Source: an uncultured bacterium
GTDB lineage: Bacteria > Acidobacteriota > Aminicenantia > Aminicenantales > UBA4085
Assembly: GCA_937868205.1 (NCBI GenBank)
Contig: CALMMC010000124.1
Coordinates: 33,046 to 97,045 of the forward strand
DNA: 64,000 nt
Direction of reading: 5' to 3'
Part shown: positions 18,044-60,155 of the stretch, piece by piece
Layout of the letters: every line of letters starts with the position of its first letter
How positions within the stretch are numbered: position 1 is the first letter of the stretch
The notes under the pieces: generated by a model
The model's database searches: none
What the model saw: only the letters and a program-made list of their open reading frames with translations
What the model was told of the DNA's origin: nothing
Position numbers and translations under genes: made by a program

Positions 18044-18814
18044 CTACTTAATGATGGTTTTGTATTTTTCGAAAATCTGCTTCAGCTGAAGCTTGGTCAC
18101 GACGTATCCGCTGAGAGTCATCGAAATCGTCGACCGGAGGGGGTCGTTGGTCTTAAAAAGAATGAATTCACGGACGAATCCCGCCCGGCCCGCCAGCGGG
18201 AAACGGACGGTGATCTCCGCTTCTTTTCCAGCCGCGACCTTGATGGGAAAGGCGGCCGGCTTTCCCTTGGCGAAAAAGGCGGCTCCCGGCAGGGCGCATT
18301 CAAACGAGAGCTCCAGCTCGCCGCGGTTCTTGACGACGACGGGAGTCTCCAGGGATTCCCCTTCAACGATCAGCCCGGCGTCATAAGTATACTGGCTCAA
18401 GTCGATCTTCGGCTGAGGGGGGACATCCACGGCCGCTTGGACTTTAAGCTGGATCCGGCGGGCGTTCGGGTCGTTGGACTCCACATAGATATATTTGACG
18501 ACTTCGCCGCTGTAGCCGGCGGATTTGAACGTGACCTGAAGCTTCCCCGCTTTGCCGGGATTTACTTTTTTGTCCGAGACCAAGACCGCGGTGCAGCCGC
18601 AGGAGGACTCGACGTTGCCGATCTGGAGCACGTCGTCGCCCTCGTTCGTGAAAACGAAATCAACCGAGACGTCCTGACCTTGCTTGATCTTGCCGAAATC
18701 CCACGATTCCGTCTTGAACACGATTTTCGGCTTCACGGCCGCGGCCGCTCCGGCGGCCAGAACGGCCGCGAGGCAAAGGGCGACGGCCGTTTTAAGCGAA
18801 CGGTTTCTGCTCAT
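18044..18814 (-). CDS. DUF1573-domain secreted protein (two tandem DUF1573 repeats)
   Basis: Signal peptide MSRNRSLKTAVALCLAAVLAAGAAAA; VFTNEGDDVLQIGNVESSCGCT, the hallmark DUF1573 motif; start chosen at the ATG with a GGGAGG Shine-Dalgarno rather than the longer ORF. Confidence 0.7.
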   Translation of the reverse strand: MSRNRSLKTAVALCLAAVLAAGAAAAVKPKIVFKTESWDFGKIKQGQDVSVDFVFTNEGDDVLQIGNVESSCGCTAVLVSDKKVNPGKAGKLQVTFKSAGYSGEVVKYIYVESNDPNARRIQLKVQAAVDVPPQPKIDLSQYTYDAGLIVEGESLETPVVVKNRGELELSFECALPGAAFFAKGKPAAFPIKVAAGKEAEITVRFPLAGRAGFVREFILFKTNDPLRSTISMTLSGYVVTKLQLKQIFEKYKTIIK

Positions 18815-18939
18815 GGGAACCTCCCTGACGACCAAAATGTACATCATTTCAACCCCCCTCTTCAAGGAGGCAAGCGAACGCCTCACGAAGTCCCTCCAGG
18901 GAAGGGAGGGGATGAATGAGGCGTCCCTTCATCGGGAGG

Positions 18940-18961
18940 TTGCCGCGGAACGCCGCGGCAA
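18940..18961. repeat. Perfect inverted repeat TTGCCGCGG-aacg-CCGCGGCAA in the divergent intergenic region
   Basis: 9-bp arms are exact reverse complements with a 4-nt spacer, 59 nt upstream of the OMP gene at 19020. Confidence 0.5.
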
Positions 18962-19019
18962 GTAAGATAGGCGTCCTCATGGCTGCCGCCAACCCTTTGA
19001 GGTTCGAACGGATGACAAA

Positions 19020-19916
19020 ATGAAACGGTCTCTCTTTCCAGGCGTTGTTCTGGCCCTGGCGGTCCTGGCCGCCGGCCCGGCGGCCTCCCTCGGCCGGGAA
19101 TCCGCCCCGTCCACGGCCGGCGATGCTCCCCCCCGTCTCTGGGAACGGGTGGAAATCGTTGTTTTCGGCGGACTCGGCCTCCCGGCGGCGGAGGGAATGT
19201 CGCTCCATCGGGCCGAGACCGCCTCTCCGGCGGCTTCCCCGACGGTTGAGAACCGAATCCGGACATCCTCCGCCCCGGCCGTGTTCACCGGCGCGGCCGC
19301 GACCTTTTTCTTGAAAAACGGATTCGGGATCCAAGCGGGCTTCGGCTACCTCAAAGCCGGATTGGAAAGCGTCGGCCGGTTCTCCTGGAATCCGCCCGGA
19401 TCGACGCCGGCCTCGACCGCCGTCGACGGAGGGGGCGAAGGCGAGATCACGTCCGTCCCCTTTTTCATCGGGGTTTTCAAGAGCTTCGAATTCCGCTTCG
19501 CCGGAAAAGCTCTTCGGGCGCACGTCGCCGCCGGTCCGGCTCTTTTTTTCCATTCGATCCTGACCTCGAGCCAGGCGGGCGCGGTGGCGATCCGGGACGG
19601 CCTGACGGACGCGATCCTCGTCCCCGTCCGCGTGGAGGACACCACCTGGATCTCCCCCGGCGCGACGGCCGGGGCCGGACTCGATCTTCCGCTCTCTCCG
19701 GCCCTTTCCCTCGCCGTCGAGGGACGTTACGGCTTCGCTCCGCGGAAAGAATTTTCCTGGATTTGGACGCCGGGCGTCTATGACGGGATTTTTCACCGGG
19801 TGGCCGCTTTCAACTTCGACGAGGCGGCCGCGGCCCGGGAAGCCGGGCGGACGACACCCTTGTCCGTCGACCCGTCGTTTTTTCAGATCGCCATCGGATT
19901 GAAGCTGATTTTTTAA
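19020..19916 (+). CDS. Hypothetical outer-membrane beta-barrel protein
   Basis: Signal peptide MKRSLFPGVVLALAVLAAGPAAS, amphipathic beta-strand pattern, terminal …IGLKLIF (C-terminal Phe); paralogous to the C-terminal domain of the next gene. Confidence 0.5.
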   Translation: MKRSLFPGVVLALAVLAAGPAASLGRESAPSTAGDAPPRLWERVEIVVFGGLGLPAAEGMSLHRAETASPAASPTVENRIRTSSAPAVFTGAAATFFLKNGFGIQAGFGYLKAGLESVGRFSWNPPGSTPASTAVDGGGEGEITSVPFFIGVFKSFEFRFAGKALRAHVAAGPALFFHSILTSSQAGAVAIRDGLTDAILVPVRVEDTTWISPGATAGAGLDLPLSPALSLAVEGRYGFAPRKEFSWIWTPGVYDGIFHRVAAFNFDEAAAAREAGRTTPLSVDPSFFQIAIGLKLIF

Positions 19917-19937
19917 GCCGCCGCCCGGCCGCAAACG

Positions 19938-19946
19938 TGCTATACT
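19938..19946 (+). promoter_or_regulatory. Candidate extended -10 element TGcTATACT
   Basis: 29 nt upstream of the ATG (19975) with a GGAGG Shine-Dalgarno in between; the identical 9-mer recurs at 26746-26754. Confidence 0.3.
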
Positions 19947-19974
19947 GAAGGCGAATCCGGATCGGAGGTTGGAA

Positions 19975-21219
19975 ATGGAATATCGCGCGACCCGCATCCT
20001 CCCGATCGCTTTCCTGGGATTCATCCTCGCCGCGGCAGCCGCCTTCGGCTCGCCTGTCATCAAGCTCAAAGTCACGGCCGAAATCGCCAACGTCCGGGTC
20101 AAGCCGTTTATCGGCAGCAACATCGTCCGCCAGTTCCCCGAAGGCACGGTTCTCGAGGCCGCGCGCAAGGAAGGGGAATGGTTCCTGGTCAAGATGGAGC
20201 CCGACGAGACCGGCACGATCTCCGGTTATGTTCACGAAAGCCTGGTTTTGGCTCTCGAGGACATTCCCATCACCGAGCCCGTTCCCGCTCCGGTCGTCGA
20301 GATCCCTCCGGTCGAGGAAGTCGAAAAGGAAGAGCCGCCGCCGGCCAAGGCCGTCCCCCGGCCGAAAGCGACCCAACCCGCCCCGGTCGAGCCCCCGCCG
20401 TCCGTCTACGAGGCGACCCGGGAAATCATGGTCGCGGCGGCCGCCGAAAGTCCCGTTTCACTCTTCCTTTGGGGCGGCGGCGGAATAACGGCCGTCGGGG
20501 ATTTGAACGACGGCATCCAAGGCCTGGCAGATTTCTATGCCGACCAGATCCATCGGCCGGCCGGCGGAGAGACCGCCCCCCTCCGGACCGGGCTGCAATA
20601 CGGCGGCGAAATCGGATTCAAGCTTCTCCCGCGGCTGCGTCTCTCGGTGGGCGCCGAATTTCTCCGGGCATCCAAGAAAAACGTCCTGGCCTTTGCCGGC
20701 GATTCCGAAATCCCGTCCGATCTGACGGTCAAGCCCTCGTTTTCCGCAATTCCCGTACATCTTACGCTCGCTTATTATCCCCTGGACTTCCTCTATCTCA
20801 AGGCCGGAGCCGGCTATTTCTTCACCCGGGCGGAATACCGTTATGTCTTCACTCATGGAGACATCCTGCGGGATTGGGAAGGGGAGGCGACCGCTTCGGG
20901 AGCCGGCTTCCTGGCGGGAATCGGCCTCGATTTATCCTTAGGCCGCTATTTCTGTCTCACGGCCGAAGCGAGCGGGCGGTACGCGAAAATTTCCGGATTC
21001 TCGGGAACCAACGCCTACCGCGACGAGATTTCAACCGAACCGTATCTTGAGACGGGCACCCTCTACGCTTTTGACGTTCGAACCACGAGCCGGACCGCGT
21101 ATCCCCTGGTCTTCATCCGGAACGGGAAACCGTTCGAAAGCGGCGTGGAGAACGCCCGGGAAGCGCGGCTCGATCTGACCGGGCTCTCCGTCCGGATCGG
21201 GTTGAAATACCGATTCTAA
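19975..21219 (+). CDS. SH3b-domain / proline-rich linker / outer-membrane beta-barrel protein
   Basis: Signal peptide; SH3b-like N-domain (ANVRVKPFIGSNIVRQFPEGTVLEAARKEGEWFLVKM...GYVHESLV); about 60-aa Pro/Glu/Val linker; beta-barrel ending …RIGLKYRF. Confidence 0.55.
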   Translation: MEYRATRILPIAFLGFILAAAAAFGSPVIKLKVTAEIANVRVKPFIGSNIVRQFPEGTVLEAARKEGEWFLVKMEPDETGTISGYVHESLVLALEDIPITEPVPAPVVEIPPVEEVEKEEPPPAKAVPRPKATQPAPVEPPPSVYEATREIMVAAAAESPVSLFLWGGGGITAVGDLNDGIQGLADFYADQIHRPAGGETAPLRTGLQYGGEIGFKLLPRLRLSVGAEFLRASKKNVLAFAGDSEIPSDLTVKPSFSAIPVHLTLAYYPLDFLYLKAGAGYFFTRAEYRYVFTHGDILRDWEGEATASGAGFLAGIGLDLSLGRYFCLTAEASGRYAKISGFSGTNAYRDEISTEPYLETGTLYAFDVRTTSRTAYPLVFIRNGKPFESGVENAREARLDLTGLSVRIGLKYRF

Positions 21220-21905
21220 TCCGCCGGCCGCTTTTTCAACAAGGCCAGATGGTAGGCGTGGATTCCGCCGAACAGCGGAAGGACGCGGACGACGGAGAAT
21301 CCCGCCTCGCCGGCGGCTTTTTCAAACACCCCGGGCTCGACCATCTTGATGTTCGTCCGGCTCTTGCCGAAGGCCCGGCGGAGACGCCGCTGAACCTCGT
21401 GCAGGCCGTTGGCCCGGTAGAACGAAACGAGAGCATACGCCGAGGAGACCCGGGAAAACTCTCCCAGAATCGCCTCCCGGCTCTCGGGGGAGTGGATATG
21501 GTGGAACAAGCGGATGGAAAAAACGAGATCGAAGGCTCCGGCCCGGAACGGCAGCCGGCGCGCGTCGGCCGCGAGCACCGGAATCCCGCGTCCGGCCCCT
21601 CCCTCCTCCGGCGCCCCCCCGGCCGTGTTTTCCGCCGCCCGGCGGGCCATCTCGAGCGAGAGGTCCGCGCCGACGACCTCAAGCCCCCGGTCCCGGAGCA
21701 TCGCCGTGAACCGGCCGTAACCGCAGGGCATGTCGAGAACCCGCCTCATTCCGTCGCGGCCGGCGGCGTCTTTCGCGGCCTCGGCAAGCATCTTCCGGAT
21801 GATCTTCGTCTCCCGGGCATGGACGATCCTCTGGTCGAGTCCTCGATAGCGGCGCTTTTCATACTCCCGCACGCCACCCCCGGTGAATCTACTTGAAGAT
21901 GACAT
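21216..21905 (-). CDS. Class I SAM-dependent methyltransferase (Methyltransf_11-like)
   Basis: VLDMPCGYGRF (motif I), DLVFSIRLFHHI (motif II/III). Start chosen at the ATG with a GGGAG Shine-Dalgarno; the long upstream ORF extension is R/G-rich and not protein-like. Confidence 0.75.
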   Translation of the reverse strand: MSSSSRFTGGGVREYEKRRYRGLDQRIVHARETKIIRKMLAEAAKDAAGRDGMRRVLDMPCGYGRFTAMLRDRGLEVVGADLSLEMARRAAENTAGGAPEEGGAGRGIPVLAADARRLPFRAGAFDLVFSIRLFHHIHSPESREAILGEFSRVSSAYALVSFYRANGLHEVQRRLRRAFGKSRTNIKMVEPGVFEKAAGEAGFSVVRVLPLFGGIHAYHLALLKKRPAD

Positions 21906-23211
21906 AACGCGGACTCCCATCGAGACGGATAAGACCGCCGTCGCGGTCCTGGGCGAGGCCGCGGCCGCTCCGGTCCAAGACGCTGGCGACCGGCCGGTCG
22001 AACTCCCGGCGAAGCGGCCCTCCCCGCGTCCAGGCCAGGGCGAACTCCCGGCCGCCCTTGCGGAAATGATAGACTTCACCGCCCCGGCCGGCTGTCCCTC
22101 CGCCCCGGGGCGTCTCCTCCTTGCCGGTGAACACGCTTCCGGAAAGCATGGACGCCATGAAGGCGAACGCGGCGTAGCTCGGCCGTTTCCGCCAGGGCGA
22201 CTCCCGGCTGTCGACCAGGCCGTATCCGGGCGCGACGAGCTGCCACCAATAGGCGCGGTCGATCCATCCGCTCGCCAAGGCGATGACGTAATACCGCACC
22301 AGGAAATCCGCCTGGACGTCCTCTCCGACGTTGGGCTTGCCGGCCGCCGGCGACCAGGCCCCGGTGTTCTCCAAGGGCCAATTGAATTCCGTGATCCAAG
22401 CGGGCCGGCCGCCCGGGACGAGCACGTCGGCGCACGCCCGAAAGAAAGCGATTTTTTTCGCCGCCGTGAATCCATACTGGGGATTCTCCGGAGCGCCGAC
22501 GCGATCGACGTACAAAAGCGAGCTGATCACGTCGAAATCCACGGCCCTTAGAACGGGCGGATAGAGGTGATATTCGAAATCGATGACCGCCGGGCCGATG
22601 AGCTTGATGTTTTTTCGGCCGATCCGGTCGCGGGCGGCCGCGGCCGCCCGGGCCAGGCGGATATATTCCCGGTGGTCCCAAACCCCCCATTTCGTCCGGT
22701 TCCAAGCATGCCCGATTTCAAAATAGGGACAGGCCGGGCCGAGGCGGTCGAAAGCGGACTCCGCGAAATCCGTCCAGGCTTCCACGGCGAACACGTCCTC
22801 TCGCCGCTGCAGCAGGGCGGCCGCCGGTTCGAAGCCCTCTGAATGAAGGCGGCCGGCGAATCCGGCATAATCCTCGAGCCGATCCCTTTCCCACGAGGGA
22901 AAACGGAACAGCACCCGGCGGACGCCCGTTTCCCGAAGCAGGGCCAGGACGGCGTCCGTTTCGCCGGGACGGCCGAAGCGCGGCGAAACCGCCAGGCCGA
23001 ACATGCCGGGAGTGATGTCCACCGGCCGGCGGAACAGGCGTCGGCGGAGCGCCCGGTATCGCCAAAAAATCGCCGGGTCCCAAACGAGGTTGAGGCCGAT
23101 CAGCTCCAAGTAGGACGGCCAGCGGCGAAGATGATGCCGGGTCCGATCGGACCGCGGAGCGACATTGTGCGGCTGATCGGCCATGTCATTCCACTCGAAT
23201 TTGAACCTCAT
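21889..23211 (-). CDS. TIM-barrel glycoside-hydrolase-like protein (GH-A clan-like ITEFNWP nucleophile region, acid/base NEP motif not evident)
   Basis: Trp-rich sequence with an ITEF motif; the N-terminal 180 aa of the tracked ORF overlap the upstream kinase gene in another frame and are judged spurious; starts 7 nt after the kinase stop. Confidence 0.45.
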   Translation of the reverse strand: MRFKFEWNDMADQPHNVAPRSDRTRHHLRRWPSYLELIGLNLVWDPAIFWRYRALRRRLFRRPVDITPGMFGLAVSPRFGRPGETDAVLALLRETGVRRVLFRFPSWERDRLEDYAGFAGRLHSEGFEPAAALLQRREDVFAVEAWTDFAESAFDRLGPACPYFEIGHAWNRTKWGVWDHREYIRLARAAAAARDRIGRKNIKLIGPAVIDFEYHLYPPVLRAVDFDVISSLLYVDRVGAPENPQYGFTAAKKIAFFRACADVLVPGGRPAWITEFNWPLENTGAWSPAAGKPNVGEDVQADFLVRYYVIALASGWIDRAYWWQLVAPGYGLVDSRESPWRKRPSYAAFAFMASMLSGSVFTGKEETPRGGGTAGRGGEVYHFRKGGREFALAWTRGGPLRREFDRPVASVLDRSGRGLAQDRDGGLIRLDGSPRYVIFK

Positions 23212-23218
23212 GATCGAA

Positions 23219-24049
23219 TCACTGGATCCGGAGCCGGCGGGCGAGGGCCCGGAGGCGGAGCCTTTTTTTGAAAGCCAGCCAGGAGATAAAAACCCGCTTG
23301 GAAATCCGGTAAGACAAACCGAACCGTCGCCGCCGGAACCGGCCGCCCGCCGCCGCGGCGTATTGGTCGAGAAAAAACGGCTGGAGTCCGGGCGGCACGC
23401 CCAGGCGGACGAGATTCCGGGCCCGGTTGAAAATCCCCGGCCGCCGGCGCCGGACCCGGTTCGTATCGAGAAACAGAAACCGGAATCCGCCTCCGGCCGG
23501 AGCGGCCGCGGCCTCTTCGTTTTCAAAAACGAGAATGTTGCCGTCGGAAAGATCGCGATGGACGATCCCCCGGCCGTGCAGGCGGGCGAGAACCGGGGCC
23601 AACGAGGAAAGCAGGCGGCGCAAAACGATCTCGGAAGACTGGAGGAAGTGCTCCCGGATTTCCCGTCCGCCTCTGACGCGGCCGGAGATGAAGACGCTTT
23701 CAACGGCGATTCCGCCGCGGCGGCGTTCAAACACGGCGATCGGCTCGGCCGTTTCAAAGCCGTTTTCCACCAGAGCCAGGGCTCCCTTCCAGGCCCGAAG
23801 TCCTTTGGAGGGAAGAAGCAGGGTTTTCCACTTCTGAACCCCGCGCGTCCCGAAGATCTTCACGACGGCGTCCCGGTCCGGGGAAAGACGGACGGCGATG
23901 ACTTGATTTCGTCCGGCCTGGAGCGTTTCAGCCTCGGGCGAGCGGAGAAATCCCGGAAAATCCTCCAGAGCGGCGGCCGCCGCCTCTCCTTCCCGGGAGG
24001 CCGTTCGGAAGCCGCGGTAGGGCGGGACGGCGAGCGGGCGGATTTCCAT
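23219..24049 (-). CDS. Lipopolysaccharide kinase (Kdo/WaaP/InaA-like protein-kinase fold)
   Basis: HRDLSDGNILV catalytic loop and FLDTN(R) DFG-equivalent typical of the Kdo/WaaP family. The start ATG shares a nucleotide with the upstream stop (TGATG). Confidence 0.7.
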   Translation of the reverse strand: MEIRPLAVPPYRGFRTASREGEAAAAALEDFPGFLRSPEAETLQAGRNQVIAVRLSPDRDAVVKIFGTRGVQKWKTLLLPSKGLRAWKGALALVENGFETAEPIAVFERRRGGIAVESVFISGRVRGGREIREHFLQSSEIVLRRLLSSLAPVLARLHGRGIVHRDLSDGNILVFENEEAAAAPAGGGFRFLFLDTNRVRRRRPGIFNRARNLVRLGVPPGLQPFFLDQYAAAAGGRFRRRRFGLSYRISKRVFISWLAFKKRLRLRALARRLRIQ

Positions 24050-25200
24050 CACCGGCCTCCTCCCGGCGCCGGCGGAGAAAGGGCGAAAGCCGGCCCGAAG
24101 TGATCGGCCGCGAAGCCGGCGAGGCGGCGGGCCACGGCCTCCGGGGTGAACTCGCGGCGGACGAGGGAAAAGCCGGCCCGGGCGATCCGCTCCCGTCGGC
24201 CGGGATCTCGGGCCAACTCGAGAACGGCCCGGGCCAGGGATTCCGGATCCGGTTTGTCGCATAAAACGATGTTTTTGTCGTGGGCGAAGAATTCCTCAAC
24301 GGCCGGAGTCCTGAGAGTGACGACCGGACGGGCCAGGCCCATCGCCTGGAAGATTTTATGGGGAACGACCCGCCGCGTTTTCGCGGTCCGGCCGAAGATC
24401 CCCAGGCAAACGTCCGCCGCAGCCGCCGCCCGGGCGAGTTCCGTCATGGGCACGCGCCCCGAGAAATCGATGTTGGCTAAATCCGCGGCCGCCGCCCGGG
24501 TCGCAGCCGACGTCCGCCCCTCTCCGATCAGCCGGAAGCGGATCGACCGATCCCGCAGCCAAACCAAACGGGCCGCCTCGACAATGATCTCGACTCCGTG
24601 AAGGGGCAGAAACGAGCCGAAAAAGAGGACCTGAAAACCGTTGCCGGGCCGGAGCGCCCGGGAGAGGAGTTCCGTCTCCGCCGGCGGGCGGAAAACGTCG
24701 TCGTCGTAGCCCAAGGGCACAACCTCGACCTTGGCCGGCGAAAGGCCGTAGGTTTCGCAATAATACCTCTTATGGGCGGCCGTGTCGGCCAAGACGAGAT
24801 CGGCCAAGGCGAAGGATGCCCGGTCGATCTGGAAATTCCACCAGGCCCCGGGCGAGTCCGGGCGCCCCCAGCCCCAGTCAATGACTTTCGTCTCGTAGCG
24901 GGCGGCGAGCGGATCGAAAATCAACGGCCGGGCGGTCAAAGAGGCGAGCAACCGGGCCGGGGGGACGTCCTTGGCGCAGAACTCCGGGACGAAGAGACAG
25001 CGGCCGGCCGCCGCCCCCTCCGGCCGGAGAAGGCCCCGACGGAACGCATCCAGGAGAAGCAGCGGGTGACGGGCCCAGGATTTCAGCCCCGCCCCAAAGC
25101 GGCATTCGACGACTTCGGCTCCAATCCGGCCGAGACCCTTGCGGAGAACCGCGCCGCGCGGGTAGCCCGGAAGAAAACCGCCGAAAAATTCAAAACGCAC
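24049..25200 (-). CDS. Glycosyltransferase family 4 (GT-B, RfaG-like)
   Basis: GTG start; C-terminal donor-binding domain; motif region consistent with E-x7-E. Confidence 0.75.
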   Translation of the reverse strand: MRFEFFGGFLPGYPRGAVLRKGLGRIGAEVVECRFGAGLKSWARHPLLLLDAFRRGLLRPEGAAAGRCLFVPEFCAKDVPPARLLASLTARPLIFDPLAARYETKVIDWGWGRPDSPGAWWNFQIDRASFALADLVLADTAAHKRYYCETYGLSPAKVEVVPLGYDDDVFRPPAETELLSRALRPGNGFQVLFFGSFLPLHGVEIIVEAARLVWLRDRSIRFRLIGEGRTSAATRAAAADLANIDFSGRVPMTELARAAAAADVCLGIFGRTAKTRRVVPHKIFQAMGLARPVVTLRTPAVEEFFAHDKNIVLCDKPDPESLARAVLELARDPGRRERIARAGFSLVRREFTPEAVARRLAGFAADHFGPAFALSPPAPGGGR

Positions 25201-25586: not shown

Positions 25587-26651
25587 TTGAATCCCCGCTC
25601 CCTCCTCCTTCTCCGTTTCCGCCGTCTCGGCGACATCGTTCTGACGACGCCGGCCGTCTCCCTCCTCAAGAGCCGGTTTCCCGGCTCCTCCCTGACCTAT
25701 CTCGTCGAAGAGCCGTACCGACGCTTGGTCGAGGGCCATCCCGACATCGACCGGGTCATCGTCGTCCCGGCCAAGCAGAACCGGTCCGATTTCCTCCGCC
25801 TCATCCGGGAGATCCGCCGGGAGCGGTACGACGCGCTTTTGGATTTTCACGGCGGTCCCCGGGCCGCCTGGATCGCGCTCTTGGGAGGCGCCCGTCTCAA
25901 GATCGGCCACGCCATCAAGTCCAAGGGCTTTCTCTACCACCGGACGACGCCCCGGCGCGGTCTCGATTCGCCCCTTCATTCCGTCGAAACCCACGCCGGT
26001 CTCGTCCGGGCCCTGGGCGCGGATTTCCGGAAAGAGGACATCCCTCCCTTGATCCTTCCCCCCGCCCGGCCGGAGGAAATCGCCCGGGTCGAGGCCTTGA
26101 CCGCGGCCGTCGCCTCCGGACAAGCCGGACCGGGCGGCGGCCCCCTCCCCCTCGTCGTTCTTCACATCGGCGCCGGCAACGCCTTCCGGGACTGGGGCGA
26201 GGAAAACGCGGCCGTCCTGGCTTCCCGTCTTCTCGAAATCCCGGGGATCTCCCTCGCCGCTGTCGGCGGCGAAGGCGACCGGCCGCGGGAGGACCGGATC
26301 GCCGCCCGCTTGGGCTCGCCCCGATTCCTTTCCTTGTCCGGACGCTTGAATATGATCGAGGTGCGGGAGCTTGTCCGCCGGGCGGTCCTGTTCATCGGTC
26401 CCGACAGCGGCCCGATGCACCTGGCGGCCGGTACCGCCACGCCGATCATCGCTTACTTCGGCCCGACGCTTCCGGCCTTGTTCGGACCCTGGCGGCCGGG
26501 CCTCAACCCGGCGAAAACGGTGATTCTCGAGACGAATCCGGACTGCCGGCCCTGCCGCCAGCGCGTCTGCGAACCGGGGGATTACCGGTGCCTGCGGAAC
26601 ATATCTCCCGACGAAGTACTTGCCGCCGCCCGGCCGTTTCTTCCTTCCTAG
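25587..26651 (+). CDS. ADP-heptose:LPS heptosyltransferase (GT9, WaaC/WaaF/WaaQ family)
   Basis: LLLRFRRLGDIVLTTPAV N-terminus and GPDSGPMHLAAGTATPIIAYFGPT C-terminal motif typical of GT9; TTG start 1 nt after the Trm112 stop. Confidence 0.85.
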   Translation: MNPRSLLLLRFRRLGDIVLTTPAVSLLKSRFPGSSLTYLVEEPYRRLVEGHPDIDRVIVVPAKQNRSDFLRLIREIRRERYDALLDFHGGPRAAWIALLGGARLKIGHAIKSKGFLYHRTTPRRGLDSPLHSVETHAGLVRALGADFRKEDIPPLILPPARPEEIARVEALTAAVASGQAGPGGGPLPLVVLHIGAGNAFRDWGEENAAVLASRLLEIPGISLAAVGGEGDRPREDRIAARLGSPRFLSLSGRLNMIEVRELVRRAVLFIGPDSGPMHLAAGTATPIIAYFGPTLPALFGPWRPGLNPAKTVILETNPDCRPCRQRVCEPGDYRCLRNISPDEVLAAARPFLPS

Positions 26652-26745
26652 TCCGCCCTCCCGCCTTCCCTCCCGGCGGAGGATCCGGCCGCTTGAATCC
26701 GTCCTCGTTTCCCCTGAGACGGGCGTTCAATTCGCTGAAAATAAA

Positions 26746-26754
26746 TGCTATACT
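26746..26754 (+). promoter_or_regulatory. Candidate extended -10 element TGcTATACT immediately upstream of waaL (possible leaderless transcript)
   Basis: Same 9-mer as at 19938; only 7 nt before the ATG at 26762. Confidence 0.25.
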
Positions 26755-26761
26755 CCCCCCC

Positions 26762-28021
26762 ATGATGAAAATCATCCGTGATTTCGTCTCCGGACGCCCG
26801 GCCGGCGACGTCGTTCTCGCTTCCGCCCTGGCCGCCGCCCTCCTTTTCTCCATGATTTCCATCAGCTTAGCCCAAGGATTCCTGGCGATCGCCCTGATCG
26901 TCTGGCTCATCCTTCTTGCCCGGGGAAAACGCAGGTTCGAGACGCCGGTCTTCTTTTGGGCCTTGGCGGCTTACGCCGGTCTTTCGCTCCTTTCCTCGGC
27001 CGCTTCGGTCAACCCTCGGATCAGCTTTTGGGACTCGCGGGATCTCCTGCTCATCCTGGCCGTCCCGGTCACCCTCGCGGCCGTCCGCCGCCGGGCCGAC
27101 CTCACGCTCGCTCTGTCGGCTTTATTTTTATCGGCGGCCGTCAACGGCGTTTACGCCGTCTTCTGCCGCTTTGCGACGACGGCCGAGCGGATCCGGGCGT
27201 TCATGGGTCATTACATGACCCAGGCCGGCCTCACGGCCTTGTTCATCTCCCTGGTTCTGGGCTTGCTGTTCGCCGGATTCGGCCGGAGAAAAAGCGCGGC
27301 CGCCGGGCGCGCCGAGGTCAAGGGAATCCGGATCGAGCGGGCCGTTCTGGCGGCCGGTTTTCTTCTGGCCTCGGCGGCCAATATTCTGACATACACCCGG
27401 GGTGCTTGGATCGGGCTGGCGGCCGCCCTGGCCGTCGCCGTCTTTCTCTGGAAACCCAAGGCCTTGATTCTCCTGCCCGTGATCGCCGCCCTCGGATTCC
27501 TGGCCGCCCCCAAGCCGGTCAAAGACCGCGCCCTGAGCATTTTCACGATGCGCGACGATTCGAATGTCGCCCGCGTCCAGTATTTCAAGGCCGGGGTTAA
27601 GATCATCTCCGATTACCCCCTCCTGGGAACCGGACCGGACACCGTCGACATGGTCTTCCAGGACGAAAAGTACGGGCTCGGCTACTTGGCGAAACACAAT
27701 GTCCATCTGCACAGCAACATCATTCAGATCGCGGCCGAACGCGGCCTGGTCACGCTGGCCGCCTGGCTCGCGTTCATCGGCCTGGCCCTGGCGGGCCTCG
27801 GGCGCCTTTGGCGCCTCCCCGAGACCGGCTTCTCCTTTTGGGCCGCCCGGCGGAAGCTCGCCGCCGGCGGCCTGGCCGCCCTGACCTCTCTCTTTGTCGC
27901 CGGATTTTTCGAATACAACTTCGGCGACTCGGAAATCGCCCAGCTCCTTTTCATTTTGATCACCCTGCCTTTCGCCGCCCGACGGCTCGAACGGGAATCC
28001 CATGAATCCGCGCCGTCTTGA
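26762..28021 (+). CDS. O-antigen ligase (WaaL / Wzy_C family)
   Basis: About 10-12 TM helices with a large periplasmic loop containing the Wzy_C-like region (TYTRGAWIGLAAALAV); genomic context next to the heptosyltransferase. Confidence 0.7.
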   Translation: MMKIIRDFVSGRPAGDVVLASALAAALLFSMISISLAQGFLAIALIVWLILLARGKRRFETPVFFWALAAYAGLSLLSSAASVNPRISFWDSRDLLLILAVPVTLAAVRRRADLTLALSALFLSAAVNGVYAVFCRFATTAERIRAFMGHYMTQAGLTALFISLVLGLLFAGFGRRKSAAAGRAEVKGIRIERAVLAAGFLLASAANILTYTRGAWIGLAAALAVAVFLWKPKALILLPVIAALGFLAAPKPVKDRALSIFTMRDDSNVARVQYFKAGVKIISDYPLLGTGPDTVDMVFQDEKYGLGYLAKHNVHLHSNIIQIAAERGLVTLAAWLAFIGLALAGLGRLWRLPETGFSFWAARRKLAAGGLAALTSLFVAGFFEYNFGDSEIAQLLFILITLPFAARRLERESHESAPS

Positions 28022-47641: not shown

Positions 47642-48592
47642 TCAAGGCGTTCGGCGGCGATCCGCGCGGGCGGAAAGAACCTCGCGCAGCTTGAGCAGGA
47701 CGTAAGGAGCGGCGTAAAGGCCGCGCGAAAGGATCTCGACGGCCCGCTTCGGAAGCCGGCCCCGCTGCTCGAGGCGCTTGACGGCCGCGTCGGCCCGATG
47801 GCACATCCGGTAGCCCAACCTCGTCGCGCCATCGATTCTTTCCGCCTCCGGACGCGCCCGGTCCCGGATGAACTCCTCCCAAATCTGGGCCTTGGCTTGG
47901 AGTTGGACGCGGGCCCGCCGGGCCGCGTTCCCCCCCCGGATCCGGACCCGGGTCAGGACTTCGGGAACCGCCGCCAGCGGATATCGGGCCGCCAGGTTGA
48001 TCCAGAAAAGACTGTCTTGGCCGTAGCGCATTTTTTCCGAAAAGCGCAGATTCGGGCTTTCTCTCAGGATCTCGGCCCGGATCATGACGCAGGGCGTGGC
48101 GATGGGGGCCGATCGAAGGCATCGGAGAAAGACATCCCCGCGGCAGGCCGAGACATCGACCGTTTTCTCGGCCCGGCGAGGATTTCCGCCGCGGAAAAGC
48201 GTATAACCGGTATGCGACCACGCCGCGCCCGTCGCCGTCATGAGGCCGAGTTGTTTCTCGATTTTCCGTTCCTCCCAGACATCATCCGAATCGAGGAACG
48301 CGATGAACTCCCCGGCGGAGTTCTCGATTCCGAGATTTCTCGCTGAGCCGGGACCGCCGTTGTCCTTGTGGAAATAGCGGATTTTTCCGGCGAAGCGGCC
48401 AAGGACGCCTCCCACATCCTCCGGCGAGCCGTCATTGACGAGGATGATCTCCGTGTTTTCATATGTCTGGCGGACGGCGCTTCCGACCGCTTCCTCCAGC
48501 CAGCCCGCCCCGGCGTAAAAAGGGATGATGACGCTGACTTTAGGCGTCAACCGCCCGTGAATCTGATCGAATCCCTTAAAAAGTCCAAGCAT
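47642..48592 (-). CDS. Glycosyltransferase family 2
   Basis: VSVIIPFYAG...VNDGSPED...LDSDD (DxD) GT-A motifs. Confidence 0.8.
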   Translation of the reverse strand: MLGLFKGFDQIHGRLTPKVSVIIPFYAGAGWLEEAVGSAVRQTYENTEIILVNDGSPEDVGGVLGRFAGKIRYFHKDNGGPGSARNLGIENSAGEFIAFLDSDDVWEERKIEKQLGLMTATGAAWSHTGYTLFRGGNPRRAEKTVDVSACRGDVFLRCLRSAPIATPCVMIRAEILRESPNLRFSEKMRYGQDSLFWINLAARYPLAAVPEVLTRVRIRGGNAARRARVQLQAKAQIWEEFIRDRARPEAERIDGATRLGYRMCHRADAAVKRLEQRGRLPKRAVEILSRGLYAAPYVLLKLREVLSARADRRRTP

Positions 48593-48659
48593 TTCTTATC
48601 CGGCCAAGCCATCGCATCGGCCGATTTGATATTTTTTCGGGAGACCCTATCAAAAGAAA

Positions 48660-49524
48660 TCAGCGCTTCTTCGCCAAAACGATATTAATCATCCCGGAAT
48701 TGGGAACAATCGACGAGGCCACACGATAAAGAGGATTCATCACATGTCGAAGAATCGACGCGCCTTTCGGCAGAGAGATATGCGTATCCGCAGAGCGTGT
48801 CATTAAAACATTAAATCCATAGTGATGGACAATATCGATTGTCTCGGCCATCGTGTACTCCCGCACATGACCGAAACCGTGGACCCAGATTCCGTCCCCA
48901 TGTGAAGACGCCGACTTTTCCTCTTTGTACACTCGATACACCGGATCGAGCACCGCCTTCCCCATAATCGCTTTGATGCGTTTGCTGAGCATCGCGATAT
49001 TTTGGAAGAGAAAAGACCAGAATCCCTCCCGCTCTAAGAATTTTTTTTATTTCCGAAAACACTTTTCCCGGGCCTGTATTCAAATGTTCAAAAACCTCCG
49101 TAAAAACGACCATGTCCATCTGACCGGGAGAAAACGGGATTTCATCTTTTAAAAGGTCACACACGCAATGCTCTATTCGATTTTTATGACATCGATCCGC
49201 TAGGAGCGAAGTGAGATCAATCGTGAACATCCGTACATTTGGAAAACACTTTCGATAAACAAACGTCATCGGCGAAGTACCAATATCAAGAATCGCCGAT
49301 TCCTTCCCTTTGGGCAATATCCTCAGGCCTTTTTGGATCATGAGGACATTCTGCCGGACAGATTCCTTATGGTTTATGAAATATTGTTTTTCGACGTTTC
49401 GGCTTTGTCCCAAACAGTTGTCGTCCGAAGAAAGGGATATTTCCATAATCACTTTTTCAAAAGAGGCCTTGAAATCCGGATCATCTTCGCGTGAATGCCG
49501 CCATTTAATACTACGGCGCGTCAC
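48660..49524 (-). pseudogene. Class I SAM-dependent methyltransferase interrupted by a single-base frameshift (extra A in a run at 49000-49003)
   Basis: N-part (ILDIGTSPM motif I ... FSEIKKILRAGGILVFSLP) in one frame; the protein-like continuation NIAMLSKRIK...WVHGFGHVREYTMAETIDIVHHYGFNVL lies in the +1 frame (ORF 48660..48992); the original-frame continuation is G/R-rich nonsense. Low-GC region. Confidence 0.6.
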
Positions 49525-49526
49525 GT

Positions 49527-50654
49527 TTATTTCATTCCTTTTTCTTCAAGGATTCTCACTAATTGTTTTGCGTGCCGTTCCTTTTTATCGCATAAATAAG
49601 CGATGATCGTCTTTGTTCCTTTTTCCGCGATGCTGGATTTATTATCGTAGTCCTGCAAAACACTCCGGATCGTTTTTGCAATATGCTCGGGATTTTTTCG
49701 CAAGATCCGGTAGCAATTATACCCATCTTTCATCAAATACGGGATCGTTCCGACGAACGTCGTGAGGATCGGAGTTCCGGCGATCATGGCTTCATACAGG
49801 ACCCGCGGAAAGCCCTCATGGTGCGTCGGGAGAACGAAGAGGTCGGCTTGCCGGTACATTCTTTTCAAGAAATCCCGATCGGAGACAACCCCGTGAAGGC
49901 GGATCCATCCGCCAAGGTCCTCCTCCGCGATGATTTGTTTGATCTTCGCCGCATCCGCTCCGTCGCCGACCATGTCGAGGCTGAAGTCGACTTCCCCCCT
50001 GTCCTTCAGGATTTTCACCGCTTGGACGAGATCATAGGAGCCTTTCGGCTCTTCGACGCGGCCTACATAGAGGAGGCGATAATGATCCCGTCGCTCATAC
50101 GTGCGGCCGGAAACGATATCCTTCTCCCCCTCTTCCATCATCGGACGTATTGTTTGCGCCTCGCCTCCTCCTTTCCTGATGATTTCAGTGAATTGAGGCG
50201 AGATTGTCAAAGAAATCATCGCTTTCCGAAATAATATTTTTGAGAGGCGAGACCGCATCCCTTTTTCCCCCCGGATATAAAAACCAAATGGTTTTCTCCA
50301 TAGGACGGCAAAGATGGCCATAAAGAGATTGATATTTCCGGGATAATATAGATAGAGAAAATCATATTTTCGGACGATTTTAAATCCAACAATCAACCCT
50401 TGGATATAGGCGGCGTATTTTATTTTCCCCCTCGATATCGATATGATTTTAATATCGCGGTCATTGATTTTGTAATCAAAGATACTGTTTTTTTCCTGGT
50501 TTTTAATACGAAATTGGAAAAATCCTACCTGTTCAACAAGATGGGACAATTCAACAAGGAATCGGCCGTCACTTCGAAAGATAAACAAATCGTTGCCTTT
50601 TTCAAGCATGACATTATTTCTAACAAGAAGGATTTTCATTTTTTTCCATGCCAT
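49527..50654 (-). CDS. Glycosyltransferase family 4 (low-GC, horizontally acquired)
   Basis: EGFPRVLYEAMIAGTPI (E-x7-E motif); about 45% GC against about 66% background. Confidence 0.8.
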   Translation of the reverse strand: MAWKKMKILLVRNNVMLEKGNDLFIFRSDGRFLVELSHLVEQVGFFQFRIKNQEKNSIFDYKINDRDIKIISISRGKIKYAAYIQGLIVGFKIVRKYDFLYLYYPGNINLFMAIFAVLWRKPFGFYIRGEKGMRSRLSKILFRKAMISLTISPQFTEIIRKGGGEAQTIRPMMEEGEKDIVSGRTYERRDHYRLLYVGRVEEPKGSYDLVQAVKILKDRGEVDFSLDMVGDGADAAKIKQIIAEEDLGGWIRLHGVVSDRDFLKRMYRQADLFVLPTHHEGFPRVLYEAMIAGTPILTTFVGTIPYLMKDGYNCYRILRKNPEHIAKTIRSVLQDYDNKSSIAEKGTKTIIAYLCDKKERHAKQLVRILEEKGMK

Positions 50655-50660
50655 TCCCGC

Positions 50661-52823: not shown

Positions 52824-52850
52824 CGAAACGCCGTAACCTCCGTCCCGGAG

Positions 52851-54413: not shown

Positions 54414-54500
54414 AAGGCGAGACTTGAAAGCGCGGGTCGTCAGAGAACGGCGTCAGCCTCCCTTTCGTTCTTCATCCCGCTGTTTTCAACGTTCAAATCG

Positions 54501-55610: not shown

Positions 55611-55663
55611 CAAGCCGTCCTTTACATCAGATTTTTTTATCGATTACGAGCTTGGAAAAAGGG

Positions 55664-60112: not shown

Positions 60113-60155
60113 TATTTTCCTTCCTGGCAATTGCATAGGACCGCCCAAGCCTTAT

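What the first reader, a model, noticed from the sequence alone, without database searches (positions are those of the whole stretch)
19020..21219. Tandem paralogous outer-membrane beta-barrel genes; the second carries an N-terminal SH3b domain and a Pro-rich linker
Both proteins have signal peptides and end in Phe, the OMP assembly signature, and their barrel regions are paralogous. The second has an SH3b-like domain (ANVRVKPF…GEWFLVKM…GYVHESLV) and a PVPAPVVEIPPVEEVEKEEPPPAKAVPRPKATQPAPVEPPP linker ahead of the barrel. This inverts the OmpA architecture (barrel then C-terminal peptidoglycan-binding domain). It suggests a periplasmic peptidoglycan- or ligand-binding tether on the N-terminal side of an OM barrel, an uncommon envelope-stapling design.
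Basis: partly seen in the sequence, partly recalled or inferred. Interest (0 to 1): 0.5.

Follow-up and report, generated by a model that had tools for sequence, protein, structure and literature searches.

The report
SH3b-linker-barrel outer-membrane protein of Aminicenantes
The second gene encodes a signal peptide, a bacterial SH3 domain, a proline-rich spacer and a small outer-membrane barrel; it is conserved across the uncultured Aminicenantes and probably links the outer membrane to the cell wall from the periplasmic side, while the first gene is an unrelated-looking accessory barrel, not a recent duplicate.

Summary
Both ORFs are real genes at the stated coordinates, in a Candidatus Aminicenantes genome. 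AlphaFold2 models are confident (pLDDT 84.5 and 86.7) and match only outer-membrane barrels in the PDB.

ORF B (19975-21219) has four parts:
- a signal peptide;
- an SH3b domain (aa 31-95), confirmed by fold against phage cell-wall-binding SH3 domains, with Pfam SH3_3 hit by 53/54 relatives;
- a disordered Pro/Glu/Lys-rich spacer;
- a barrel with eight membrane-competent strands, ending in YRF.

The "tandem paralogue" claim fails. A and B share only superfamily-level similarity (BLASTP E 0.05; hhalign 70%). A is absent from 51 of 72 species loci that carry B.

B is the conserved core gene of the class, next to an LPS-core gene cluster. Its barrel is a modular anchor. Relatives carry SH3b with short or long linkers, TPR, TPR+PEGA, or nothing.

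The best reading is a periplasmic SH3b tether to peptidoglycan. It has the same layout as OmpM (SLH-stalk-porin) and intimin (LysM-barrel) but is built from non-homologous parts. Binding and topology are inferred, not shown. I rate it a new variant of a known kind, of moderate interest.

The parts
19020..19916 (+). ORF A: 298-aa accessory outer-membrane beta-barrel. Signal peptide about aa 1-24, disordered aa 16-35, barrel aa 43-297 with very long strands, ends LIF.
   Evidence: ORF. AF2 pLDDT 84.5, strands up to 32 aa. Foldseek hits OmpT, OmpA, OprG, OpcA, OmpW. Pfam OMP_b-brl_2 scores 18.8 bits here (below GA 27) and is hit by 11/18 relatives. Present in only 20 of 72 species loci.
19964..19968 (+). 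GGAGG ribosome-binding site, 6 nt upstream of the ATG at 19975, the probable true start of B.
   Evidence: Sequence read directly. P0001, 99% identical, is 414 aa.
19969..20052 (+). B N-terminus and signal peptide (aa 1-28 counted from the TTG; the ATG start is at 19975). Positive n-region, hydrophobic core ILPIAFLGFILAAAAA, AFG|S-like cleavage site, no lipobox.
   Evidence: AF2 helix 6-25. A hydrophobic N-terminal 12-mer occurs in 51/54 relatives, and a lipobox-like motif in only 1/54.
20059..20253 (+). SH3b (bacterial SH3, SH3_3-type) domain, aa 31-95. Invariant N41, R43, P46, G86, H89, E90, S91.
   Evidence: Translation. pLDDT 90-96 with seven short strands. Pfam SH3_3 scores 24.9 bits here (GA 27) and is hit by 53/54 relatives, best 1.7e-10. 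Foldseek against BFVD matches phage SH3b and endolysin wall-binding domains over 67-76 columns, rmsd 1.3-3.9 A, TM up to 0.82.
20254..20454 (+). Pro/Glu/Lys-rich disordered spacer, aa 96-162. It includes a low-confidence helix at 146-158 that is not conserved in distant relatives.
   Evidence: Translation. pLDDT 42-60. In the family the spacer is 37-78 aa (median 56), with 20% P, 17% E and 10% K, and the sequence is not conserved. Across 113 representatives the SH3-to-barrel spacer is 16-107 aa. No DNA tandem repeat.
20455..21216 (+). C-terminal outer-membrane beta-barrel, aa 163-416. Eight membrane-competent strands: 163-174, 207-220, 223-235, 257-272, 275-285, 312-322, 328-338, 405-415. It also has long extracellular hairpins and a large last loop.
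   Evidence: pLDDT above 90. Foldseek hits OmpA-TM, OmpW, OprG, CarO, Pla/OmpT. Pfam OMP_b-brl scores 19.4 bits here (GA 28.7), is hit by 23/54 relatives, and the barrel-only relative P0247 scores 49.5 bits. Family-averaged alternating hydrophobicity.
20500..20547 (+). Conserved helix in the first barrel loop (aa 178-193, motif GDLNxGxxGLADYY). This is the signature of this barrel family.
   Evidence: AF2 helix with pLDDT 96-97. N180 and G185 are invariant; D178, L179, G182, L186 and Y190 are at least 90% conserved. The motif is also present in barrel-only and TPR/PEGA variants.
21181..21216 (+). C-terminal beta-signal strand GLSVRIGLKYRF (terminal Phe, hydrophobic residues at -3, -5, -7).
   Evidence: Terminal F in 48/54 relatives; positions -3 and -5 are hydrophobic or aromatic in 53/54.
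18044..18886 (-). Context: divergently transcribed secreted DUF1573 / Ig-like protein, conserved next to B in most Aminicenantes loci.
   Evidence: Pfam DUF1573 1.3e-30. NCBIfam OS_HP2 family, 104.7 bits. Synteny.
21216..25200 (-). Context: convergent block of SAM methyltransferase, a conserved ~440-aa protein with no Pfam hit, a Kdo/WaaP-family LPS kinase and a GT1 glycosyltransferase. It is followed by GT9 heptosyltransferase and Wzy_C ligase on the + strand (25587-28021).
   Evidence: Pfam. The block is conserved downstream of B in most of the 72 species loci.

Best explanation
ORF B is a Sec-exported, BAM-assembled outer-membrane protein. Its small (most likely 8-stranded, OmpA/OmpW-class) C-terminal barrel anchors it in the outer membrane. 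From the barrel, a 40-70-residue Pro/Glu/Lys-rich flexible spacer hangs into the periplasm and carries an N-terminal SH3b domain. The SH3b domain most likely binds the peptidoglycan layer, probably its peptide stems, so the protein works as a non-covalent staple between outer membrane and cell wall.

It is the conserved, single-copy core gene of this locus throughout the class Aminicenantia. ORF A is a separate, probably 10-stranded, surface-extended barrel of unknown role that was inserted upstream in one sub-lineage.

Shown: the domain architecture, the folds, conservation, synteny and modularity. Inferred: the strand count, the periplasmic position of the SH3b domain, and above all the ligand.
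For: Architecture and folds:
- Confident AF2 model with an SH3-like domain, a disordered linker and a barrel.
- OM-barrel-only Foldseek hits in the PDB.
- SH3b fold matches to phage wall-binding domains, rmsd 1.3-3.9 A.
- SH3_3 hit in 53/54 relatives.

Export and assembly signals:
- Hydrophobic N-terminus in 51/54 and C-terminal Phe in 48/54 relatives.

Topology:
- Only eight strands have a membrane-length alternating hydrophobic face. An even count puts the N-terminus in the periplasm and leaves no pore for a passenger.
- The best TM-scores are to 8-stranded barrels.

Spacer behaviour:
- Length and composition are conserved but the sequence is not.
- One relative (P0230) replaces it with a 107-aa Lys/Glu-rich segment whose composition suggests a helix (my reading of the sequence).

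Conservation:
- 72 species-level genomes, all Aminicenantes or Saccharicenans.
- 296 representatives at E<=1e-30, and 113 of the best 150 are SH3+barrel.

Context:
- The gene sits beside an LPS core/O-antigen cluster.

Precedent:
- SH3b domains of lysostaphin and endolysins bind peptidoglycan (PMC6461655).
- N-terminal periplasmic wall-binding modules on barrels are established for OmpM (PMC10628300) and inverse autotransporters (PMC5595812).
Against: - No binding data exist, and the organisms are uncultured.
- The invariant SH3 residues (ANxRxxP, GYVHES) are the generic structural motifs of SH3_3, so they say nothing about the ligand.
- SH3b-like domains can bind carbohydrates instead (PMC8179006).
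- Relatives of the same barrel carry TPR or PEGA modules, which are protein-binding or surface-type domains. This shows the barrel is a general anchor, not specifically a wall tether.
- The window protein itself scores below the Pfam gathering thresholds for SH3_3 (24.9 vs 27) and OMP_b-brl (19.4 vs 28.7).
- The strand count comes from sequence and DSSP, not from coordinates.
- Conserved synteny may only reflect vertical inheritance, because B is flanked by divergent and convergent genes and so shares no operon with them.
- I could not check whether these genomes also have Pal or OmpA.
Confidence: 0.5

Rival explanations
1. The architecture and periplasmic location are the same, but the SH3b domain binds something other than peptidoglycan. 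Candidates are a periplasmic or inner-membrane protein partner, such as the conserved DUF1573 neighbour or an LPS/OM-biogenesis factor, or a glycan. B would then be an OM-anchored adaptor or scaffold rather than a wall staple.
For: - The barrel family is modular, with TPR, TPR+PEGA and unknown N-modules that typically mediate protein contacts.
- A TPR variant sits at the same position next to the orthologous methyltransferase, 46% identity.
- The DUF1573 and LPS-gene neighbourhood is conserved.
- SH3b-like repeats are known to bind non-peptidoglycan ligands (PMC8179006).
Against: - The closest structural matches of the domain are wall-binding modules of endolysins, amidases and NlpC/P60 peptidases.
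- The only NCBIfam hit is to the SH3b region of the wall peptidase EntFM/CwpFM.
- No partner is co-transcribed with B.
Confidence: 0.25
2. B is a miniature autotransporter-like protein. The C-terminal barrel exports the N-terminal SH3 domain and Pro-rich stalk to the cell surface, where the SH3 domain acts as an adhesin or polysaccharide binder.
For: - Weak Pfam Autotransporter hit: 17.2 bits here, and 10/54 relatives at E<0.01.
- NCBI names P0005 'autotransporter outer membrane beta-barrel domain-containing protein'.
- The barrel domain is about 255 aa, preceded in this sub-lineage by a predicted helix at 146-158.
Against: - All Autotransporter scores are below GA 26. OMP_b-brl matches more members and with better E-values.
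- Only eight membrane-competent strands are found, not twelve.
- NalP ranks 25th in Foldseek with TM 0.18-0.23, behind 8- and 10-stranded barrels.
- Helix 146-158 has pLDDT about 56-60 and is deleted in distant relatives.
- Variants with 16-22-aa spacers could not span a barrel and still display a domain.
Confidence: 0.08
3. The barrel is the functional part, acting as a channel, a lipid/LPS-modifying enzyme or a receptor. The SH3b domain and linker would be only an accessory that positions, regulates or stabilises it.
For: - The most conserved barrel features lie in loops: the GDLNxGxxGLADYY helix and the PLVFIRxKxPxExGVxxAREA segment.
- Barrel-only relatives exist, 16 of 150 representatives.
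- The LPS biosynthesis neighbourhood recalls the OM lipid A enzymes PagP and PagL, which are 8-stranded barrels (my own knowledge).
Against: - No invariant His/Ser/Asp constellation is present. The invariant barrel residues are mostly Gly, Pro or aromatic, plus N180.
- An 8-stranded barrel is too narrow for a general channel.
- The SH3 domain is the most conserved part of the protein, with a block of invariant residues, which is not expected of a dispensable accessory.
Confidence: 0.1
4. One reading: A and B are tandem paralogues from a local duplication, with B later gaining the SH3 domain and linker.
For: The genes are adjacent on the same strand with a 58-nt gap. The two barrels show remote profile-level similarity.
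Against: - BLASTP E 0.049 over 26 aa.
- hhalign probability is only 69.7% at 18% identity.
- The two match different Pfam families.
- B occurs without A in 51/72 species loci, with one A in 15 and two A in 5. True tandem duplication is seen between A copies, not between A and B.
Confidence: 0.05

Closest known systems
OmpM / Mep45 / SlpA-type SLH-porins of diderm Terrabacteria (PMC10628300; bioRxiv 10.1101/2021.05.31.446380)
   Same: Same order of parts and same presumed logic: signal peptide, an N-terminal periplasmic wall-binding module, a spacer spanning the gap to the wall, and a C-terminal OM beta-barrel. It is conserved clade-wide as an envelope protein.
   Different: Every part is non-homologous. 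B has SH3b instead of SLH, a disordered Pro/Glu/Lys spacer instead of a trimeric coiled-coil stalk, and a small barrel (about 8 strands) instead of a 16-stranded trimeric porin. OmpM is reported absent from Gracilicutes, whereas Aminicenantes belong to Acidobacteriota. Wall binding is demonstrated for OmpM and not for B.
OmpA family (8-stranded barrel + C-terminal OmpA_C peptidoglycan-binding domain, Pro-rich hinge)
   Same: A small OmpA-like barrel (the best Foldseek hits are OmpA-TM), a Pro-rich hinge, and one globular periplasmic domain presumed to bind the wall.
   Different: The domain order is reversed. The periplasmic domain is SH3b rather than OmpA_C (no PF00691 hit). The spacer is several times longer than the short Pro-rich OmpA hinge (its length is from my own knowledge).
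Inverse autotransporters (intimin, invasin, YeeJ): N-terminal periplasmic LysM + barrel (PMC5595812; bioRxiv 10.64898/2026.01.22.700529)
   Same: An N-terminal periplasmic peptidoglycan-binding module precedes an OM barrel.
   Different: Those have a 12-stranded barrel and a large C-terminal passenger. B ends at the barrel's beta-signal, has no passenger, and uses SH3b rather than LysM.
SH3b cell-wall-binding domains of lysostaphin, phage endolysins and NlpC/P60 peptidases (PMC6461655, PMC8179006)
   Same: Same fold and Pfam family as B's N-domain.
   Different: Those domains target soluble hydrolases to Gram-positive walls. Here the domain is fused to a membrane barrel in a diderm, with no catalytic domain.
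Pfam OMP_b-brl / OMP_b-brl_2 (clan MBB) small barrels: opacity proteins, OmpW, OprG; OmptinS (OmpT/Pla) for ORF A
   Same: Fold-level similarity for both barrels. A has omptin-like, very long surface-protruding strands.
   Different: Scores are below the gathering thresholds for the window proteins. A has no invariant His, so it lacks an omptin-type Asp/His catalytic site (catalytic residues recalled from my own knowledge).

Membership tests
Pfam SH3_3 (PF08239), bacterial SH3 domain | HMM score at or above the gathering threshold (27 bits) | tested here: inconclusive
   The window protein scores 24.9 bits, E 2.4e-5, just below GA. 53 of 54 family members match at E<0.01, best 1.7e-10. The relatives P0230, P0251 and P0263 score 28.0-31.3 bits, above GA.
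Pfam SH3_3 (PF08239), bacterial SH3 domain | SH3b fold: a small beta-barrel of 5-7 strands | tested here: met
   AF2 gives seven short strands at aa 31-95 with pLDDT 90-96. Foldseek against BFVD matches SH3 domain proteins and endolysin wall-binding domains with prob 1.00, rmsd 1.3-3.9 A over 67-76 columns, TM up to 0.82.
SH3b as a peptidoglycan-binding module | Binds peptidoglycan or muropeptide | not testable with these tools
   Needs a sacculus pull-down or NMR titration. It is inferred only from fold relatives (PMC6461655).
Outer-membrane beta-barrel (Pfam clan MBB; OMP_b-brl PF13505 for B, OMP_b-brl_2 PF13568 for A) | HMM score at or above the gathering threshold | tested here: inconclusive
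   B scores 19.4 vs 28.7 and A scores 18.8 vs 27. At family level, 23/54 B relatives and 11/18 A relatives match. P0247, a barrel-only relative of B, scores 49.5 bits.
Outer-membrane beta-barrel (Pfam clan MBB; OMP_b-brl PF13505 for B, OMP_b-brl_2 PF13568 for A) | Closed antiparallel barrel fold resembling solved OMPs | tested here: met
   The barrels have pLDDT above 90. All significant PDB Foldseek hits are OM barrels.
Outer-membrane beta-barrel (Pfam clan MBB; OMP_b-brl PF13505 for B, OMP_b-brl_2 PF13568 for A) | Sec signal peptide and C-terminal beta-signal ending in an aromatic residue | tested here: met
   A heuristic hydrophobic N-terminus is found in 51/54 and 18/18 relatives. The terminal residue is Phe in 48/54 and 16/18, with hydrophobic residues at -3 and -5. 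No dedicated SignalP run was available.
OmpA family | C-terminal OmpA_C-like (PF00691) periplasmic domain after the barrel | tested here: not met
   No PF00691 hit at E<=1. The protein ends at the last barrel strand.
OmpM / SLH-porin | N-terminal SLH domain | tested here: not met
   No SLH Pfam hit. The N-domain is SH3_3.
OmpM / SLH-porin | Coiled-coil stalk and 16-stranded trimeric porin barrel | tested here: not met
   The linker is Pro-rich and disordered (pLDDT 42-60). About eight membrane-competent strands are found. OmpF-type porins match poorly, TM about 0.10. Oligomeric state was not tested.
OmpM / SLH-porin | Wall-binding module placed N-terminal to the barrel, in the periplasm | tested here: inconclusive
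   The N-terminal placement is met. The periplasmic location is inferred from the even strand count and the lack of a pore. It was not measured.
Classical (type Va) autotransporter | PF03797 beta-domain at or above GA; 12-stranded barrel with a pore-filling linker helix; large passenger | tested here: not met
   17.2 bits vs GA 26. Eight membrane-competent strands. NalP TM is 0.18-0.23. Helix 146-158 is of low confidence and not conserved. The would-be 'passenger' is a 65-aa SH3 domain.
Inverse (type Ve) autotransporter | C-terminal passenger after the barrel; LysM periplasmic domain | tested here: not met
   There is no sequence after the barrel and no LysM hit.
Omptin (OmpT/Pla) for ORF A | Conserved Asp-Asp / Asp-His catalytic residues in the extracellular rim (residues recalled from my own knowledge) | tested here: not met
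   The 18-sequence alignment of A relatives has no invariant His among its 33 invariant columns. The similarity to OmpT is at fold level only, TM about 0.28-0.35.

The most novel reading that the evidence does not exclude
The SH3b-spacer-barrel protein is the principal, class-wide outer-membrane-to-peptidoglycan staple of Aminicenantia. It would be an independently evolved analogue of OmpM inside the Gracilicutes, built from entirely different parts. Its barrel would be a general 'plug-in' anchor onto which evolution has swapped periplasmic modules (SH3b, TPR, PEGA) and spacers of tunable length (16-107 aa), which may set the distance between outer membrane and wall.
Probability: 0.25. Interest if true: 0.65.

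Novelty: new variant of a known kind. Interest (0 to 1): 0.45.

Why it matters
How diderm bacteria fasten the outer membrane to the wall is currently described with four systems: Lpp, Pal, OmpA and OmpM. These are split between the Gracilicutes and the Terrabacteria. A clade-wide SH3b-linker-barrel protein in an Acidobacteriota class would add a fifth solution that arose by convergence. It would also show that the OmpM-like layout, with the wall binder N-terminal to the barrel, is not confined to Terrabacteria.

The natural series of spacer lengths and N-terminal module swaps on one barrel family is a ready-made test set for ideas about how tether length sets periplasmic width. On the practical side, the family is currently annotated inconsistently as 'hypothetical', 'opacity protein-like', 'SH3 domain-containing' or 'autotransporter'. 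It could instead be given one consistent description.

Tried and rejected
1. Recent paralogy of A and B: rejected.
2. Autotransporter reading, suggested by a weak Pfam hit and an NCBI name: rejected on score, strand count, fold ranking and the non-conserved helix.
3. Curated NCBIfam model: none exists for A or B. The only hit is a 19-bit match to the SH3b region of EntFM.
4. PDB sequence search with the family profile: only marginal hits, PlyP35 SH3b-like CBD at E 0.13.
5. Promoter/terminator scan of 18700-21500: no more than chance, so it does not tell whether A and B are co-transcribed.
6. Tandem DNA repeats in the linker: none.
7. Rfam and tRNA scans of the window: nothing.
8. The first genome scan with the 54-sequence alignment failed because no stretch was conserved enough. 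It was redone with 14 sequences. The patterns used are family-specific, so the absence of hits outside Aminicenantes is not proof that no analogous fusions exist elsewhere.
9. Literature searches for an SH3b plus OM-barrel protein and for Aminicenantes envelope biology found nothing relevant.
10. I could not read model coordinates, so the strand count, the shear number and the position of the loop-1 helix are not determined directly.
Full report
1. WHAT IS THERE

The window is a 63% GC stretch of a Candidatus Aminicenantes (Acidobacteriota) genome. The closest database proteins are 91-99% identical and come from Aminicenantes or Acidobacteriota MAGs. ORF A is 19020-19916 (298 aa, ends LIF). 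ORF B is 19969-21219 (416 aa, ends YRF). B most likely starts at ATG 19975, 6 nt after a GGAGG, which gives 414 aa like its 99%-identical database twin. Both are real genes. A has 20 homologue clusters and B has more than 100. Both give confident AlphaFold2 models, with mean pLDDT 84.5 and 86.7.

2. CHECKING THE OBSERVATION

Signal peptides and C-terminal Phe. Hydrophobic N-terminal segments occur in 51/54 B relatives and 18/18 A relatives, without lipoboxes. The last residue is Phe in 48/54 and 16/18, with hydrophobic residues at -3 and -5, which is the canonical BAM beta-signal pattern.

Barrels. Both models are all-beta C-terminal domains with pLDDT above 90. Their significant Foldseek hits in the PDB are exclusively outer-membrane barrels: OmpA-TM, OmpT/Pla, OprG, OmpW, OpcA and CarO.

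SH3b domain.
- Residues 31-95 of B form seven short strands at pLDDT 90-96.
- Barrel hits swamped the PDB search, so I searched the viral structure library, where barrels are rare. There the domain superposes on phage SH3 domain proteins and on the wall-binding domains of endolysins, amidases and NlpC/P60 enzymes. The matches cover 67-76 columns at rmsd 1.3-3.9 A, with TM up to 0.82 normalised to the small targets.
- Pfam SH3_3 scores 24.9 bits for the window protein, just under the 27-bit threshold. It is matched by 53 of 54 relatives, best 1.7e-10.

Linker. Residues 96-162 are disordered (pLDDT 42-60). In the family this segment is 37-78 aa long (median 56) and contains 20% Pro, 17% Glu and 10% Lys, with no sequence conservation.

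The 'paralogous' part is not supported.
- BLASTP between A and B finds a 26-residue match at E 0.049.
- Profile-profile comparison gives 69.7% probability and 18% identity over 180 columns.
- They match different Pfam families of the same clan.
- Phyletically they are uncoupled. Among 72 species-representative genomes that carry B, an HMM screen finds no A-type gene nearby in 51, one in 15 and two in 5. One further locus (L072) has B split into two ORFs (possibly a frameshift or assembly error) with a divergent SH3+barrel ORF downstream.
- Real tandem duplication exists, but between A copies.

A is therefore an accessory insertion between B and its conserved upstream neighbour.

3. ANATOMY OF B AND ITS TOPOLOGY

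I had no access to model coordinates. Instead I combined the DSSP strands with family-averaged hydropathy.

Eight strands carry a membrane-length face of alternating, conserved hydrophobic residues: 163-174, 207-220, 223-235, 257-272, 275-285, 312-322, 328-338 and 405-415. The other predicted strands (238-242, 250-254, 286-311, 345-398) are short or polar. They read as extensions of long extracellular hairpins and of a large last loop.

This fits three other results:
- the Pfam OMP_b-brl (8-stranded) match;
- the best target-normalised TM-scores to OmpA-TM, OmpW and OprG (0.49-0.57);
- the poor match to 12-stranded autotransporter barrels (NalP 0.18-0.23) and to 16-stranded porins (about 0.10).

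An even-stranded small barrel puts both termini in the periplasm and offers no pore. So the SH3b domain and spacer should hang into the periplasm. This is an inference.

A conserved helix (aa 178-193, GDLNxGxxGLADYY, pLDDT 96-97) in the first loop, together with the segment PLVFIRxKxPxExGVxxAREA, forms the family signature of this barrel.

ORF A has strands of up to 32 residues. It looks like a taller, probably 10-stranded, OmpT/OpcA-shaped barrel, but it has no invariant His that could form an omptin active site.

4. DISTRIBUTION, CONTEXT AND MODULARITY

Distribution. B relatives were found in 72 GTDB species representatives. All those with informative names are Aminicenantes, Aminicenantia, Aminicenans or Saccharicenans. 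The search patterns were family-specific, so similar fusions elsewhere are not excluded. An exhaustive HMM search of 1.84 billion representatives gives 296 proteins at E<=1e-30.

Neighbourhood. It is strongly conserved down to about 32% identity. Upstream is a divergent secreted DUF1573/Ig-like protein. Downstream and convergent are a SAM methyltransferase, a ~440-aa protein with no Pfam hit, a Kdo/WaaP-family LPS kinase and a GT1 transferase. In the window these are followed by GT9 heptosyltransferase, Wzy_C ligase, a PfkB kinase and sugar-nucleotide dehydratases. Further on lie a low-GC O-antigen cassette and an LptD_2-family gene. B thus sits in an envelope/LPS region. However, it is transcriptionally isolated, so this is weak functional evidence.

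Architectures among the best 150 representatives:

| Architecture | Count |
|---|---|
| SH3 + barrel (spacer 16-107 aa, median 44) | 113 |
| Barrel only, with its own signal peptide | 16 |
| Other N-terminal module + barrel | 4 |
| Double barrel | 1 |
| Fragments or uncertain | 15 |
| SH3-repeat protein without a barrel | 1 |

The other modules include TPR (P0217) and TPR+PEGA (P0213). In P0230 the spacer is a 107-aa Lys/Glu-rich segment whose composition suggests a helix. That reading comes from the sequence and no prediction was run. The TPR variant comes from an Aminicenantes MAG and lies directly upstream of the orthologous methyltransferase (46% identity). This suggests a module swap at the same locus. 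The barrel is therefore a reusable outer-membrane anchor for N-terminal modules, and SH3b plus a Pro-rich spacer is its dominant form.

5. MECHANISM

Best explanation (confidence about 0.5 for the function, about 0.9 for the architecture): B is exported by Sec and inserted by BAM through its C-terminal beta-signal. The barrel anchors it. The Pro/Glu/Lys spacer behaves like the extended Pro-rich spacers of TonB and the OmpA hinge (my own knowledge). At 40-70 residues it can bridge the several nanometres to the wall. The SH3b domain binds peptidoglycan non-covalently.

Support comes from fold relatives that are wall-binding modules (PMC6461655). It also comes from the established precedents of OmpM (PMC10628300) and of LysM-bearing inverse autotransporters (PMC5595812; bioRxiv 10.64898/2026.01.22.700529).

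Rivals:
- The SH3b domain binds a protein or glycan partner, making B an adaptor (0.25). The TPR/PEGA swaps favour this, and SH3b-like repeats are known to bind teichoic acid (PMC8179006).
- The barrel itself is the functional unit (0.1).
- Autotransporter-like surface display (0.08), disfavoured by strand count, scores, fold ranking and the short-spacer variants.
- A local A/B duplication (0.05), already contradicted.

6. COMPARISON AND NOVELTY

In how it would work, B is closest to OmpM and is a mirror image of OmpA. It fails membership in every named family tested:
- no SLH domain, coiled coil or 16-stranded porin, so it is not OmpM;
- no OmpA_C domain, so it is not OmpA;
- no LysM or passenger, so it is not type Ve;
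- below threshold and with the wrong strand count, so it is not type Va.

Its parts do belong to known superfamilies (SH3_3 and the MBB clan barrels).

Databases label members inconsistently: 'hypothetical', 'opacity protein-like surface antigen', 'SH3 domain-containing' and 'autotransporter...'. No NCBIfam model exists. Full-text searches found no description of an SH3b-barrel protein or of Aminicenantes envelope tethers. OmpM is stated to be absent from Gracilicutes, so an analogous layout in Acidobacteriota would be convergent.

Verdict: a new variant of a known kind. Interest is moderate (0.45). The architecture is solid and clade-defining, and the modular series is attractive. The function rests on analogy, and the organisms are uncultured.

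Noticed in passing
window 47642-55613 (- strand): GC falls from about 0.63 to 0.50-0.54 over a cassette encoding GT2, a methyltransferase, GT1, a Wzy O-antigen polymerase, a sulfotransferase, an unknown 520-aa protein and a Wzz chain-length determinant. It looks like a horizontally exchanged O-antigen or polysaccharide serotype island.
   Followed up: partly
window about 21889-23210 (- strand; the ORF is listed as 21889-23757): A ~440-aa protein with no Pfam hit is invariably sandwiched between the methyltransferase and the Kdo/WaaP-family kinase across Aminicenantes (44-96% identity in nearly all loci). It is an uncharacterised, conserved member of the LPS-core-like block.
   Followed up: partly
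window 18044-18886 (- strand): The divergent neighbour is a secreted two-domain DUF1573/Ig-like protein. It passes the NCBIfam 'OS_HP2 family (seleno)protein' model (104.7 bits vs cutoff 100) and carries an SCGC motif. It stays next to B in most genomes, so it could be a partner.
   Followed up: partly
window 21216-21219: The 3' ends of B (+) and the convergent methyltransferase (-) overlap by 4 bp, as in L001-L003. This leaves no room for a terminator between them.
   Followed up: no
window 57881-60148 (- strand): A 755-aa LptD_2-family outer-membrane protein (Pfam 1.1e-22) lies next to a UDP-glucose dehydrogenase. Much of the annotated part of the window, roughly 18-60 kb, is devoted to envelope or LPS functions.
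   Followed up: no
L072 8001-10347: In one Aminicenantes MAG, B is split into two ORFs (possibly a frameshift or an assembly error). It is followed in tandem by a divergent 385-aa ORF with an SH3-like N-domain, a very short linker and the same barrel. This may be a paralogue replacing the original.
   Followed up: partly
L078 2804-5834; L080 1926-8487: Barrel-only and TPR+PEGA+barrel relatives sit beside large secreted proteins that carry SH3_3, PEGA and NHL repeats, and beside a PEGA-containing Ser/Thr kinase. This hints that the periplasmic module and the barrel can be encoded separately, or can work with PEGA/NHL partners.
   Followed up: no
P0230 (452 aa, metagenomic): This relative replaces the Pro-rich spacer with about 107 residues of Lys/Glu/Ala-rich sequence (KEAAKEARRKKAEEKKVEKEAKKK...). 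The composition suggests a long single helix or coiled coil, which would bring it closer to the OmpM stalk design. No structure prediction was run.
   Followed up: partly
L004 4080-5907; L008-L012, L067: In some genomes the A-type barrel is present as two tandem, clearly related copies (HMM E 1e-35 to 1e-81). This is the genuine tandem paralogy in this locus.
   Followed up: yes
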